Part shown: positions 17,787 to 20,788 of the stretch, piece by piece
Position numbering within the stretch: position 1 is the stretch's first letter
How the letters are laid out: each line of letters begins with the position of its first letter
DNA from: a virus
DNA length: 64,000 bases
Strand: one strand, 5' to 3'
Virus record (IMG/VR): IMGVR_UViG_3300045988_173323
Program-made: the position numbers and the translations under genes
The notes under the pieces: generated by a model
Seen by the model: the letters and a program-made list of their open reading frames with translations, nothing else
Databases searched by the model: none
What the model was told of the DNA's origin: nothing

Positions 17787-18189
17787 TTACTCAGCATTAT
17801 ATGTTGCCTCCTGCGAATGTTCTTTAATATACGCTTTTCTTGCAGTTACCCCATTTCCCATTAACTGTTCAAAAAGAATTGAAGTTGCACTAACATCTTC
17901 AACTGTAATTTGTCTGATAATTCTTTTCTCAGGATCTGTTAAAGTTTCTTCTGTCTCGTCTACTGACATTTCACCTAATCCCTTCATACGCCCAACCAAA
18001 TACTTCTTTCCTGCATTGGCTTTTTTAAATGCCTCTAATTCTTCATCATTTTTTAAGTATTTATATTCTTTTCCAATAGTAATTTTGTATAAAGGTGGAA
18101 CTCCCGCGTAAACATATCCATCCTTTATAAGTTCTGGACAAAAGTTCCATATAAATGTATAGAAAAGATTTTTGATGTGAGCACCATCA
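17787..18189 (-). CDS. Type II topoisomerase B (GyrB/T4 gp39-like) subunit, exon 2 (C-terminal part)
   Basis: [14 protein letters not shown]...KGLGEM... is the C-terminal half of the TOPRIM domain (DxDxDGsHI) and the GyrB tail. Confidence 0.8.
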
Positions 18190-19283
18190 CGTGTTGTTCC
18201 CATGTTTTCATCGGCACTGACTATCTCTTACTCAATTAATACAAATTAAGGAGACCATTTCGACATTTAACTAGCTTCGTTGCCTAGAACTAGACTACGT
18301 ATCAATAGTAGCTCTACTTCCCTGCCCAGAAGGCTTAGGGAATAGTCGATACAGGTTCAAATATTTATCCATTTTTTTTCTTTTTTCTTATATATTGGAA
18401 GATTGCTATAATATCTTCCCCATAGGATTTGTTGAAACGATTGATAAGATATACGTTCCTTATAATCCTGATAAATCTGTTTTGCACTTTCTACTACATA
18501 TCGCTTTCTAATCAAAATTACTTCTTCATCAGAAAGTTTAGCAGAAGCACTATTTCCACCTTTGCTATTCTCATACATATAATATTTTTTATTTTCTTCG
18601 GTAAAAACTTCTGGCATTATATGCGACCAAGCTTTTCCTTGCCAGAGATTTTGAAAATAGCTAAATGAAATTTTATCTTTATAATCTTCATAAACATCTT
18701 TTTGTTTAAGATGATTATTATATGCCTTTCGTATGTTAATAACATCTTCTTCGGTTAATTTAGCCCGTCCGTTATTTTTTCCAATGGACTGTTGATTTCC
18801 ACCTTCTGAACAGTTATATCCATTTTTAATGGCATTTAATTTTTTAATCCAATATTCTTCTTTAGCATTAAGGTCATCTATAGAACATTCTTCTAAAATT
18901 TCATAATCAAAATTATCTGCACCATATTTCTGTATAGCAACATCTACTGGAATTCTATTTTTTTCACCAGCTATTTTATGCTCTTGAAATCTTCTTTGAA
19001 TATTATTTGATTGACCTATATATATTTTATTGTTAGTTTTATTTGTTATTTTATAAATTCCTATCATCTTTAATTCTCCTTCATTTTTATTTTTGAAAGA
19101 GAATGAATAAATATTTGTTTCCCACGGGATTACCATATCTTGCTCAAGGACTTAGGATTCCCCGTTAGCAAAAATTTTCTCTTTCATATTTATATGAGAA
19201 CCATATGGATCACATAAATATGTTTTGACCAAAATTTTTACCCGCTTGATTAAGCGAAAAGTCTTTCATACGCCGTATTACTG
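18190..19283 (-). other. Group I intron (~1.09 kb) carrying a GIY-YIG homing endonuclease
   Basis: Exon 1 ends ..GAC GU (U before the splice site). The intron ends ..AACACG (terminal G). Joining gives the in-frame DADVDGAHI, matching the GyrB TOPRIM motif DADVDGSHI. Boundaries are good to about 2 nt. Confidence 0.65.
18357..19136 (-). mobile_element. GIY-YIG homing endonuclease (intron-encoded), with NUMOD-like C-terminal repeats
   Basis: IGIYKITNKTNNKIYIGQSNNIQRRFQEH at the N-terminus. Confidence 0.8.
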
Positions 19284-20788
19284 ACGTCCGCATCTGACAT
19301 TATAATTATTTTACCATATCTTAAATCTTCTTTATCGTAAGTTACTTTCATAGTTTTAGGATCAATTTTAAGTCCAAAAGCATCAATCATAGTCATAATT
19401 TCAGCATTTTTCTGAATTTGAGTTAGGGTAGCTTTTTGACAATTTAAAATTTTTCCTCTTACAGGCATAACTGCCTGAAACTCGTTATTTCGTGCTGTTT
19501 TCAAATTACCTGAAGCACTATCACCCTCAGTCACGTATATTTCGCACTTCATTCTGTCCTTTGAATAACAATCAGCAAGTTTTGAGTTAAATTTTAAAAC
19601 TTTTTCTTTCTTCTTCTTTTCTTTTTCTCTCGCAAGTTCTCTTGCTTTTTTCGCGGCTTCACTTGCCTTTTTCGCGGCGATTGCTTTATCAAAAATTACC
19701 TTAATCTCTTTTTCATTTAACAAAAGCCACTCTTGGACACTTTCTGCAATAATGCCAGTAAAAGGTGTCATATCAAGTTTTACAATTCTGGATTTAGTCT
19801 GAGCGTCATAAGATACCCCTGGAGCTGTAATATTAAAAGCTACTATTAGCCCCTCTTGAATAGCAGTGCCTTCTAAATTATCATCTTTAGTCTTTAACCA
19901 TTTTTTTTCTCTAAAGAATTTATTAAATTCTCTAGTAATTAAAGATTTAATCTGTGTAATATGCGGTCCTGCATCTGTCTCTCCTGTATTAACATAAGAA
20001 ATCATATTCATTGAATAATTATTTGTATATGTTAATACTAAATCAATTTTATTTTTACCATTGCTATGTTTAATATATAATCTATTGTTAATGATTTCAG
20101 TGTTCTTAACTTTATCTGAAACTAAATCATCAAGACCATTTTTTGAAACATATTTAATAGCATCTTTTCCATTGTGAGTTAAATTGATTGTTAATCCAGG
20201 ACATAAACAGACCAATACGTGAAATAATTCTTTTATTCTTTTTTCATCTATCTCCGCATGATTAAAAAACTGCTTATCAGGCTTCCAAGAAACAATAGTT
20301 CCAGTATGGTGTTCCCCTTGATTACCAAGTTCTCGTTTTTCAAAAATACCATCTTTGAACCAAATTGTCTCAAACTTTCCGTCTCTGAAGGTTTGTACTT
20401 TTAGCTGAGACGCTAAGAAATTTGTTAATTTACTACCAATTCCGTTCAAACCCAAAGCTGTACCTTCATAAACGCCATCTTCTGAAAACTTACCAGAAGT
20501 ATTTAAAACATCAAAAGAAGCTTGCAAAACGCTTTCCCCATCTTCTCTCATAATATTTACTGGAAAGCCTTGAGCAAAATCTTCTACTGTACAAGAGCCA
20601 TCATCCTTATAATCTACATTTATTATGTTTCCATTTCCCGCTTGAAACTCATCAATAGCATTAGATACAATCTCAATCAATAGCTGAGTTGAATACTCTG
20701 TCGACCCACAATAAACTCCAGGTCTAAGTCGCGTAAACTCCCGCGGGCTTAATGATTCTATTGACTTCTCATTATATAAATTGCCCAT
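19284..20788 (-). CDS. Type II topoisomerase B subunit, exon 1 (GHKL ATPase + start of TOPRIM)
   Basis: GHKL ATPase motifs (EIVSNAIDE, GLNGIGSK), a transducer region, and TOPRIM EIYVTEGDSA...IIIMSDADV. The ORF stops just after DADV. Confidence 0.8.

What the first reader, a model, noticed from the sequence alone, without database searches (positions are those of the whole stretch)
17787..20788. Type II topoisomerase B-subunit gene split by a group I intron with a GIY-YIG homing endonuclease, inserted exactly in the TOPRIM DxDxD motif
Exon junction analysis recreates [12 protein letters not shown] (the GyrB TOPRIM catalytic motif). The intron boundaries have the canonical U at the 5' splice site and a terminal G. 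Insertion at the most conserved codons is classic homing-endonuclease target logic.
Basis: partly seen in the sequence, partly recalled or inferred. Interest (0 to 1): 0.6.

Follow-up and report, generated by a model that had tools for sequence, protein, structure and literature searches.

The report
Self-splicing intron splitting phage gyrase gene
A phage gyrase B gene is interrupted, exactly in its metal-binding catalytic motif, by a mobile self-splicing group I intron carrying an I-TevI-like endonuclease gene; the kind of element is well known, but this one belongs to a widespread intron subfamily that the standard Rfam model does not detect and whose 5' half is wired in an unusual order.

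Summary
On the minus strand, exon 1 (20788..19284) ends ...GAC GT and exon 2 (18189..17787) starts T GAT GGT. Joining them gives a 635-aa GyrB reading [12 protein letters not shown], gapless against S. aureus GyrB. The 1094-nt insertion (19283..18190) follows a U, ends in G, and carries a GIY-YIG gene (19067..18357) homologous to I-TevI.

About 58 of 80 related phage loci lack the insertion. Twenty-two related copies sit at five sites in conserved TOPRIM motifs; three lack an ORF. All obey U|...G|, and each guide sequence matches its own exon.

A nine-helix structure including the P3/P7 pseudoknot is 97% paired, with 27 of 45 pairs changed on both sides. A model built from the 3' domain alone hits the annotated group I introns of phages Twort and SPbeta.

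Two features are not ordinary. Rfam RF00028 misses this subfamily (22 bits against a cut-off of 50; 24 of 25 further copies missed). The P3 5' strand follows P1 directly, with two hairpins between P3 and P4; 57 independent copies confirm this.

Splicing itself was not observed. Verdict: a new structural variant of a known kind, moderate interest.

The parts
19284..20788 (-). gyrB exon 1 (codons 1-501 plus the first two bases, GT, of Val502); ATPase, transducer and the first two-thirds of TOPRIM
   Evidence: Pfam HATPase_c, DNA_gyraseB, Toprim 1-67/96; last exon base is T at 19284
18190..19283 (-). Group I intron, 1094 nt, starts CAGUAAUACGG, ends CAACACG
   Evidence: Boundaries restore the conserved protein; covariation-supported structure; model R1 122 bits on 18190-18358
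19270..19287 (-). P1: exon ACGU (19287..19284) plus intron C (19283) paired with guide GGCGU (19274..19270); U.G wobble at the splice site
   Evidence: Per-copy P1 analysis; guide follows the exon at five sites, with a compensated synonymous Gly codon change at site B; coordinates
19260..19264 (-). P3 5' strand (AGACU), directly after P1
   Evidence: Pairs with GGUCU at 18256..18252; 4 of 6 P3 pairs change on both sides; 57 independent copies 92% paired
19243..19256 (-). hp1 hairpin CGCUU-AAUC-AAGCG, non-canonical position between P3 and P4
   Evidence: 3 of 5 pairs change on both sides; found in the 57 independent copies retained, which were selected by this hairpin
19167..19242 (-). hp2 region (GGU...GCU), variable-length hairpin domain, followed by AA before P4
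   Evidence: Different complementary stems in each lineage
19125..19164 (-). P4 (CGGGG/UCCCG) enclosing P5; P5 carries the CCUAAG...UAUGG receptor-like motif
   Evidence: G-C to A-U compensation in P4 and covariation in P5; strong by-eye similarity to Twort intron 1 P4-P5; motif
19121..19123 (-). P6 5' strand (GGG)
   Evidence: Pairs with CCU at 18355..18353; GGC/GCU and GUG/CAU variants in other copies
18357..19067 (-). Homing endonuclease gene (236 aa, MIGIYK...) in the P6 loop: GIY-YIG domain plus two ~65-aa AKLTEEDVxxIR repeats
   Evidence: Pfam PF01541 46.4 bits against cut-off 22.6; I-TevI catalytic domain 1MK0 E 1.1e-9; PHROG 7168 homing endonuclease E 1e-32; homologs in other copies
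18353..18355 (-). P6 3' strand (CCU), one base after the endonuclease stop codon
18342..18347 (-). P7 5' strand GACUAU (the helix that holds the guanosine-binding site in known group I introns)
   Evidence: Pairs with AUAGUC at 18224..18219; same sequence as in Twort intron 2; nearly invariant in the family
18319..18341 (-). P7.1 hairpin
   Evidence: 4 of 4 pairs change on both sides
18263..18314 (-). P7.2, a three-way junction with an extra hairpin; near-invariant loop UAUUGAUAC at 18307..18299
   Evidence: 6 of 7 pairs change on both sides; optional 30-nt insert in 7 of 20 copies
18252..18256 (-). P3 3' strand (GGUCU)
18231..18250 (-). P8 hairpin
   Evidence: A hairpin of different sequence at this position in every copy
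18219..18224 (-). P7 3' strand AUAGUC
18199..18214 (-). P9 hairpin (CCGAUG-AAAA-CAUGGG); this copy has a G.G mismatch and AAAA instead of a GNRA loop
   Evidence: 5 of 6 pairs change on both sides in the family; per-copy view
18190..18190 (-). Terminal G of the intron (omega-G)
   Evidence: G in all 22 copies
17787..18189 (-). gyrB exon 2 (third base of Val502, then DGAHI... to the stop codon); rest of TOPRIM and the GyrB C-terminal domain
   Evidence: Pfam DNA_gyraseB_C; alignment to 2XCO

Best explanation
The gyrB gene of this uncultured phage is interrupted by a mobile group I intron of the IA type. Shown: the gene is one transcription-unit-sized reading frame broken by 1094 nt. The RNA can form P1 (exon ACGU paired to guide GCGU, with a U.G wobble at the splice site). 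It can also form the P3/P7 pseudoknot, P4-P5, P6, P7.1, P7.2, P8 and P9, and it ends in G. Its catalytic 3' domain is homologous to introns annotated as group I in the Twort and SPbeta records. Inferred: after transcription the intron folds and binds a free guanosine in P7. The guanosine attacks the phosphate after U(19284). The freed exon 1 then attacks after the terminal G(18190). The exons are ligated to GAC GUU GAU GGU and translated into a full 635-aa GyrB that works with the adjacent GyrA. Also inferred: the endonuclease encoded in the P6 loop (an I-TevI-like GIY-YIG domain plus two repeated putative DNA-binding modules) cuts intron-less gyrB alleles of co-infecting relatives near the DADVDG codons, and repair copies the intron in (homing). 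This would explain the patchy presence, decay and loss of the element among close relatives. The intron belongs to a divergent subfamily in which the P3 5' strand directly follows P1 and two hairpins sit between P3 and P4.
For: Junction and restored protein. Intron-less alleles in about 58 of 80 related loci, and 22 insertions at five TOPRIM sites ([23 protein letters not shown]|, KGL|GEM), all with U|...G|. Three ORF-less copies of 300-369 nt in one gene (L007), which cannot yield a functional protein without RNA splicing. P1 guide tracks each exon, including GGGAU/GUCCC against AGGGU/GCCCU where a synonymous Gly codon differs. Structure: 45 pairs, 97.4% paired against 36-45% when partners are slid, 27 pairs changed on both sides, 0 of 500 shuffles as high. 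P3 placement re-tested on 57 copies not used to define it: 92.4% paired against 59.5% with shuffled partners, 38 distinct duplexes. Homology of the 3' domain model R1 to annotated group I introns: Twort orf142 intron 2 at 38.7 bits, E 7e-6; SPbeta bnrdE 28.7 bits and bnrdF 25.9 bits. R1 gave no false hit elsewhere in the 64-kb window. Endonuclease. Decayed endonuclease ORFs with intact ribozyme ends in many copies, as expected from the homing cycle.
Against: No RNA data, so splicing is inferred, not seen. Rfam RF00028 does not report it: nothing on the window at gathering or at E<=10, nothing on L007 at 3.3 kb, and only 22.2 bits against a cut-off of 50 on an isolated ORF-less copy. The same model finds the Twort and SPbeta introns at 64-101 bits. 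The 5' half departs from the canonical order P1-P2-P3-J3/4-P4. The window's own copy has small blemishes: a G.G mismatch in P9, an AAAA loop instead of GNRA, and a U.U in P5. I found no convincing P10. E-values from R1 are rough because calibration was short.
Confidence: 0.9

Rival explanations
1. Split gene with a free-standing homing endonuclease, as in phage T4 genes 39 and 60 with mobA. On this view the endonuclease gene inserted into gyrB, and the two halves are translated separately (512 aa and 138 aa) and assemble into an active subunit without RNA splicing.
For: T4-type phages do exactly this at the same TOPRIM metal-binding motif (bioRxiv 10.1101/2022.08.31.505936). In the window exon 2 is preceded by an in-frame ATG at 18203, so gene callers report 512-, 259- and 138-aa genes.
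Against: The ATG is not conserved. In 14 of 22 copies there is no in-frame start codon between the last stop in the insertion and the downstream exon, and the window's ATG is a by-product of its P9 stem variant. L007 would need four separate fragments of 70-80 aa with no starts. The non-coding flanks of the endonuclease gene are conserved as a covarying RNA structure, which a split-gene model does not predict. There is no conserved C- or N-terminal extension of the kind described for MobA and MobE splits beyond what the RNA helices impose.
Confidence: 0.04
2. A decayed relic: the window's copy no longer splices efficiently, so this gyrB is a pseudogene or is poorly expressed and the phage relies on host gyrase.
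For: The window copy has a G.G mismatch in P9, a non-GNRA L9 loop although P5 keeps a GAAA-receptor-like motif, and a U.U at the base of P5.
Against: Both exons are intact and the joined protein keeps all catalytic motifs. All core helices (P1, P3, P4, P6, P7, P7.1, P7.2) are intact. R1 scores the copy at 122 bits, in the middle of the family range. The endonuclease ORF is intact. The exact endonuclease protein occurs on six contigs, and the two places shown come from two different samples. The blemishes are in peripheral elements.
Confidence: 0.05
3. Intein or translational bypass: the gap is removed at the protein level or skipped by the ribosome.
For: GyrB and other replication proteins do host inteins (PMC4760082, listed), and T4 gene 60 uses a 50-nt bypass at this very motif.
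Against: The exon 1 frame hits a stop 10 codons into the insertion, and the endonuclease is in another frame with its own start. No Hint or intein domains were found. ORF-less copies have stops in all frames. 1094 nt is far beyond any known bypass.
Confidence: 0.005

Closest known systems
Phage T4 td intron with I-TevI
   Same: A type-IA group I intron in a phage DNA-metabolism gene, inserted at codons for catalytically important residues, with a GIY-YIG homing endonuclease gene in the P6 loop. The endonuclease catalytic domain is homologous (1MK0, E 1e-9).
   Different: Host gene is gyrB, not thymidylate synthase. The C-terminal part of the endonuclease is two ~65-aa repeats rather than I-TevI's zinc finger, minor-groove helix and helix-turn-helix (the latter from my knowledge of I-TevI; only the repeats were seen here). 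The 5' half has P3 before the two hairpins, whereas td has P2 before P3 (td structure recalled from memory, not tested here).
Staphylococcus phage Twort orf142 introns (crystallised Twort ribozyme)
   Same: Same P7 sequence (CGACUAU/AUAGUC), P7.1, P7.2, CGAAAU linker, P9 with GGAAAC loop, and a very similar P4-P5. One gene carries three introns, like gyrB in locus L007.
   Different: Twort introns have the canonical P1-P2-P3-P4 order, carry no ORF and are found by Rfam at 64-101 bits. R1 scores them only 17-39 bits against 58-138 bits for subfamily members.
T4 gene 39/60 split with MobA and the 50-nt bypass cassette
   Same: A homing-endonuclease element targets the same TOPRIM metal-binding motif of a phage type II topoisomerase large subunit. 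The T4 gp39-gp60 structure is a distant match to the joined TOPRIM region (8YO3).
   Different: T4 copes by splitting the protein and by ribosomal bypass. Here the interruption is removed at the RNA level by a ribozyme. The endonuclease is GIY-YIG rather than HNH (some metagenomic bypass cassettes do carry GIY-YIG).
Introns in the DnaE-type polymerase gene of Enterococcus phages EF1/EF5
   Same: Same subfamily: R1 scores 110 and 50.5 bits. For the copy read here (L083 ~2189-3164) the same order P1-P3-UUU-hp1-GGU-hp2-GCUAA-P4 is present, with its own P3 pairing AUGGUU/AGCCAU. Also invisible to Rfam.
   Different: Different host gene. The upstream, weaker-scoring copy follows an ORF annotated as an HNH endonuclease ('Phage intron'); the ORF inside the copy read here is annotated only as a hypothetical protein.
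SPbeta bnrdE and bnrdF introns
   Same: Phage type-IA introns annotated in the record; the 3' domain aligns to R1 (28.7 and 25.9 bits).
   Different: Canonical enough for Rfam (bnrdE 92 bits); low R1 scores, so outside the subfamily.

Membership tests
Group I intron (self-splicing ribozyme) | 5' splice site follows a U that forms a U.G wobble in P1 with an internal guide sequence | tested here: met
   U.G plus 4-6 exon pairs in all 20 distinct copies; the guide changes with the exon at five sites
Group I intron (self-splicing ribozyme) | Intron ends in G (omega-G) | tested here: met
   G at 18190 and in all 22 copies
Group I intron (self-splicing ribozyme) | Conserved core: P3/P7 pseudoknot, P4-P6 domain, P8, P9 | tested here: met
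   97.4% paired, 27 of 45 pairs with compensatory change; P3 re-tested on 57 independent copies; P8 hairpin in every copy
Group I intron (self-splicing ribozyme) | Guanosine-binding P7 helix homologous to that of proven ribozymes | tested here: met
   P7 GACUAU/AUAGUC as in Twort; R1 aligns P7-P9 to Twort intron 2 (E 7e-6) and to the SPbeta introns. Guanosine binding itself was not tested
Group I intron (self-splicing ribozyme) | Self-splicing by two transesterifications started by free guanosine | not testable with these tools
   Needs RNA-seq, RT-PCR or an in vitro assay
Rfam RF00028 Intron_gpI (curated model) | Score at or above the gathering cut-off of 50 bits | tested here: not met
   No hit on the window or on L007; 22.2 bits on an isolated ORF-less copy. 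Positive controls Twort 64-101 bits and SPbeta 92 bits. This is an operational criterion of one model, not a definition of the class
Subgroup IA2 (phage type) | P7.1 and P7.2 hairpins between P7 and the P3 3' strand | tested here: met
   Both present and covarying
Subgroup IA2 (phage type) | Canonical order P1 - P2 - P3 - short J3/4 - P4 | tested here: not met
   P3 5' strand follows P1 by 0-5 nt; hp1, hp2 and GCUAA lie between P3 and P4. I therefore call it IA2-like, not IA2
GIY-YIG homing endonuclease (I-TevI type) | GIY-YIG catalytic domain with the conserved motifs | tested here: met
   PF01541 46.4 bits against cut-off 22.6; aligned to I-TevI 1MK0 residues 4-93 with GIY, YIG, R, E and N positions conserved
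GIY-YIG homing endonuclease (I-TevI type) | Encoded inside a peripheral loop of the intron | tested here: met
   ORF 19067..18357 lies between the P6 strands at 19121-19123 and 18353-18355
GIY-YIG homing endonuclease (I-TevI type) | Cleaves the intron-less allele and promotes homing | not testable with these tools
   Only indirect evidence: patchy presence, ORF decay and ORF-less derivatives among close relatives
Type IIA topoisomerase B subunit (GyrB/ParE) | ATPase, transducer, TOPRIM with EGDSA and DxDxD, and C-terminal tail in one chain | tested here: met
   Met only after joining the exons
T4-type split topoisomerase (gp39/gp60 with MobA and bypass) | Downstream fragment has its own translation start | tested here: not met
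   No in-frame start in 14 of 22 copies
Intein | Continuous in-frame ORF with Hint domains through the insertion | tested here: not met
   Stop after 10 codons; no Hint domains

The most novel reading that the evidence does not exclude
The gyrB intron is a member of a structural subclass of group I introns that has not been recognised. In this subclass the P3 5' strand directly follows P1, and the hairpins that normally precede P3 (the P2 and P2.1 positions) are instead inserted between P3 and P4, next to an invariant GGU...GCUAA. The subclass is abundant in gut and rumen-type phage contigs: at least 120 IMG/VR stretches, up to five copies per locus, in Enterococcus phages EF1/EF5, with blastn similarity in Lak megaphages. 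It escapes Rfam RF00028, and therefore also catalogues seeded with that model.
Probability: 0.4. Interest if true: 0.65.

Novelty: new variant of a known kind. Interest (0 to 1): 0.48.

Why it matters
First, annotation. Gene callers report this gyrB as three unrelated genes (512, 259 and 138 aa), so phage gyrases of this clade look truncated unless the intron is recognised.

Second, census. The standard detector misses this subfamily: 24 of 25 copies were missed in 139 kb. The largest recent intron database was seeded with that detector (PMC11835236), so phage intron counts are probably underestimates.

Third, RNA architecture. A ribozyme core that tolerates moving two peripheral hairpins from before P3 to after it is a natural experiment on the modularity of group I folding.

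Fourth, biology of selfish elements. The TOPRIM metal-binding motif of phage topoisomerases is hit by unrelated elements that solve the disruption in different ways (ribozyme here; protein splitting plus ribosomal bypass in T4). Within this clade one intron family has colonised five TOPRIM sites plus one in gyrA.

Fifth, the endonucleases are a set of related enzymes with distinct targets in a conserved gene, which may be useful for specificity studies.

Tried and rejected
- Rfam on the whole window at gathering, on 17600-19600 at E<=10, and on L007 1-3300 at E<=10 gave no group I hit. Only a 321-nt stretch gave a sub-threshold 22-bit hit.
- Megablast of the locus against 50,697 phage records found nothing. 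tblastn found only relatives below 37% identity, so the phage has no cultured relative and I did not determine its host.
- I considered and rejected a helix GCUA/UGGC extending P4 that RNAalifold proposed from three sequences. The partner changes C to G without compensation, while the competing P6 pairing covaries.
- I looked for a canonical P3 strand just 5' of P4 and found none conserved; GAGA in the window is absent from L007.
- My script's P1 choice for L041 (guide at +34) disagrees with the homologous register (GCCG next to AUGAAAGAC). I prefer the latter by alignment, but it is not decisive.
- My regular expression for hp2 failed on most copies, so hp2 support rests on the alignment and on the five copies folded.
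- I meant to test SPO1-type polymerase introns, but EF1/EF5 turned out to have a DnaE-type polymerase related to SPbeta-like phages, so I tested SPbeta instead.
- Literature searches found no report of a group I intron in a phage gyrase or topoisomerase gene and no description of the P3-hairpins-P4 order. The library lacks most subscription journals, so this is weak evidence of novelty.
- I did not find a convincing P10.
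Full report
**Observation.** On the minus strand of the window there are three ORFs. One of 512 aa (20788..19250) has HATPase_c, DNA_gyraseB and a Toprim match that stops at profile position 67 of 96. One of 259 aa has a GIY-YIG domain. One of 138 aa (18203..17787) has the GyrB C-terminal domain. They are followed by an intact gyrA (17144..14802). Read base by base, the first ORF runs ...ATG TCA GAT GCG GAC GT, then continues for ten codons (SNTAYERLFA) to a stop. The third ORF contains ...ACA ACA CG|T GAT GGT GCT CAC. Joining T(19284) to T(18189) gives a 635-aa protein with ...[24 protein letters not shown].... Its TOPRIM and tail region aligns without a gap to S. aureus GyrB (2XCO, E 1.8e-53; [24 protein letters not shown]). 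Distant intron-less GyrB/ParE genes in phage records also align across the junction in one piece.

**Relatives.** The locus has no close relative among deposited phage genomes, but IMG/VR holds a large clade, and 80 loci at 60-95% protein identity were fetched. A tblastn of the joined protein shows about 58 loci continuous across the junction. The rest are interrupted at residue 502/503 (the window's site, here called A), 6 nt further on (A+6), at 572/573 (B), at 446 (C) or near 420 (D). Exact boundaries were found by requiring a T before and a G at the end of the insertion and the best restoration of the conserved protein. All 22 insertions satisfy this. The sites are the most conserved TOPRIM motifs: TEG|[23 protein letters not shown] and KGL|GEM. 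Locus L007 (94% identical to the window in exon 1) carries three insertions of 301, 369 and 300 nt with no ORF at sites D, A and B. Many other copies carry frameshifted or truncated endonuclease ORFs but intact ends.

**RNA structure.** All insertions share sequence blocks in the same order. After removing the variable P6 loop, 20 distinct copies align well. I wrote a structure of nine helices over that alignment and counted it. 97.4% of cells pair, against 36-45% when the 3' partners are slid by 1-3 columns. 27 of 45 pairs have changes on both sides, and none of 500 shuffles reaches any observed measure. The helices are as follows.
- P3 is long-range and crosses P7, giving the group I pseudoknot; 4 of its 6 pairs covary.
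- P4 is CGGGG/UCCCG, with a G-C to A-U switch in site-B copies.
- P5 and P6 are present, and P6 closes around the ORF site.
- P7 is GACUAU/AUAGUC and nearly invariant.
- P7.1, P7.2 and P9 are present, as are two hairpins called hp1 and hp2 here.
- P8 is a hairpin of different sequence in every copy.

P1 was checked copy by copy. The last exon base U always faces a G of the guide, followed by 4-6 Watson-Crick or wobble pairs, and the guide differs according to the exon (ACGU/GCGU at A, AGGGU/GCCCU at D, AGAGGU/GCCUCU at C). At site B a synonymous change of the Gly codon (GGA in L007, GGG elsewhere) is matched by GUCCC against GCCCU in the guide.

**Is it a group I intron?** Rfam's Intron_gpI does not report it. 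There is nothing on the window, nothing on the ORF-less copies in a 3.3-kb search, and 22.2 bits against a cut-off of 50 when one ORF-less copy is searched alone. The model is not insensitive to phage introns: it finds the three Twort orf142 introns at 64-101 bits and SPbeta bnrdE at 92 bits. I therefore built a covariance model (R1, 132 positions) from the 3' domain of the gyrB insertions only. In the window it hits only 18190-18358 (122 bits), with no other hit at E<=1. It also hits two sites in the interrupted DnaE-type polymerase gene of Enterococcus phage EF5 (110 and 50.5 bits), Twort orf142 intron 2 (38.7 bits, E 7e-6, aligned through P7, P7.1, P7.2, the CGAAAU linker, P8, P7' and P9), and the SPbeta bnrdE and bnrdF introns (28.7 and 25.9 bits). 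The Twort and SPbeta elements are annotated as group I introns in their records. That they self-splice in experiments is from my knowledge of the literature (Landthaler and Shub 1999; Lazarevic et al. 1998). Together with P1, the U.G wobble, the terminal G and the covarying pseudoknotted core, this places the element in the group I class with P7.1 and P7.2, the IA hallmark.

**What is unusual.** In Twort (sequence) the order is P1, P2, P3 5' strand, about three bases, then P4. Here the strand that pairs with the P3 3' position (just 5' of P8, after the conserved CGAAAU) lies 0-5 nt after P1. It is followed by UUU, hp1 (loop (U/A)AUCA), an invariant GGU, hp2 of variable length, an invariant GCUAA, and only then P4. 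The EF5 polymerase intron has the same order with its own P3 (AUGGUU/AGCCAU).

I aligned 94 R1 hits from 80 new loci, then located hp1 upstream by script. Eighty-two of these 3' domains were new and distinct. A 5' element set was found for 57 of them and not for 25. In those 57, none used to define the structure, the hexamer 3 nt before hp1 pairs with the model-aligned P3 3' hexamer in 92.4% of cells. The figure is 59.5% (maximum 66%) with shuffled partners, over 38 distinct duplexes. On 18 of the new loci (139 kb) R1 finds 25 copies and Rfam at gathering finds one, the weakest R1 hit, evidently a canonical intron. So the window's intron belongs to a widespread subfamily that the curated model misses. 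I could not find this arrangement described, but the searchable library lacks most older subscription papers, so I rate its novelty as possible, not established.

**The endonuclease.** The ORF most likely starts at 19067 (MIGIYK, after GAAGGAG), as in all homologs, and ends at 18357, one base before the P6 3' strand. Residues 3-88 align to the I-TevI catalytic domain (1MK0, E 1.1e-9) with the GIY, YIG, Arg, Glu and Asn positions kept. The whole protein matches PHROG 7168 'homing endonuclease'. The rest consists of two ~65-aa repeats (AKLTEEDVxxIR...YxDYKxxISxxxFQxxWxGxxW). Intact site-A enzymes are 65-75% identical to the window's, the site-B enzyme is 43% identical, and the L001 A+6 enzyme is 34% identical. 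This fits related enzymes that have diverged along with their targets. Cleavage and homing are inferred from the patchy distribution, ORF decay and ORF-less derivatives.

**Rivals.** The serious rival is a T4-like split gene. T4-type phages carry the MobA endonuclease and a bypass cassette in the same TOPRIM metal-binding motif and make two polypeptides. Here that fails. In 14 of 22 copies no in-frame start codon lies between the last stop and the downstream exon. The window's ATG at 18203 is part of its P9 stem variant. L007 would need four start-less fragments. An intein or bypass is excluded by the reading frames. A decayed, non-splicing copy cannot be excluded without RNA data. The window copy has a G.G mismatch in P9, an AAAA L9 loop and a U.U in P5. 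Against that, the core helices, both exons and the endonuclease are intact, and the exact endonuclease protein recurs on six contigs, with the two places shown coming from two samples.

**Verdict.** In kind it is well known: a mobile group I intron with a GIY-YIG homing endonuclease at a catalytic motif of a phage DNA-metabolism gene. Three things are new relative to what I could find. The host gene is a phage gyrB, with the same family also found in gyrA at residue 169 in L007 and L076. One intron family has colonised five TOPRIM sites. The intron belongs to an Rfam-invisible subfamily with a rearranged 5' half. I rate it a new variant of a known kind with moderate interest.

Noticed in passing
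window 43310-57736 (-): A cluster of 33 tRNA genes on the minus strand, an unusually large tRNA complement for a phage contig of about 135 kb.
   Followed up: no
window 17720-17761 (-): A perfect 17-bp hairpin (GUUCCAUUUCCUGUCAG ... CUGAUAGGAAAUGGAAC) with a U-rich tail immediately after the gyrB stop codon. It looks like a terminator and produced several spurious Rfam hits.
   Followed up: no
L007 3709-4783 and L076 8895-9918 (window gyrA 14802-17144 is intact): gyrA is interrupted at residue 169 by an ORF-carrying member of the same intron family (R1 117 and 121 bits). L007 therefore has four introns in its gyrB-gyrA pair.
   Followed up: partly
L083 (Enterococcus phage EF5, MF001361.1) 939-1066 and 2189-3164; Lak megaphage records MK250015-MK250028: The same intron subfamily interrupts the DnaE-type polymerase gene of EF1/EF5. 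The upstream copy follows an ORF annotated as an HNH 'Phage intron' endonuclease, but no RNA feature is annotated. blastn similarity to the 3' domain is also seen in Prevotella Lak megaphages.
   Followed up: partly
window 18299-18307 and 18349-18353 (-); all family members: The nine-base P7.2 loop UAUUGAUAC is nearly invariant and complementary to GUAUC in J6/7. This may be a tertiary or alternative pairing, but because both sides are invariant there is no covariation to test it.
   Followed up: partly
window 18199-18214 and 19132-19157 (-): The window's P9 loop is AAAA where relatives have GAAA, GUGA or GUAA, and P9 has a G.G mismatch. P5 keeps the CCUAAG...UAUGG motif known as a GAAA-tetraloop receptor. 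This may be a weakened L9-P5 contact in this copy.
   Followed up: no
window 18263-18293 (-); 7 of 20 copies and EF5: An optional 30-nt hairpin turns P7.2 into a three-way junction. It is present in the window, some site-A copies, the site-C copy and EF5, and absent from others.
   Followed up: no
L098, L099, L108, L154 (IMG/VR): Single viral loci of 8-15 kb carry three to five copies of the subfamily, so some phages are heavily colonised. The host genes were not identified.
   Followed up: no
L001 7513-8494: A phage 95% identical to the window in exon 1 carries a related intron 6 nt downstream (after DADVDG). It has a divergent GIY-YIG enzyme (34% identity) and a weaker, mostly wobble P1, so neighbouring registers of the same motif are occupied by different elements in very close relatives.
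   Followed up: partly
L081/L082 gene calls (ENA assemblies of the same phage): Public gene calls list gyrB as separate 512-aa and 138-aa proteins with a 259-aa GIY-YIG protein between them, so the protein databases hold truncated GyrB entries for this clade.
   Followed up: no
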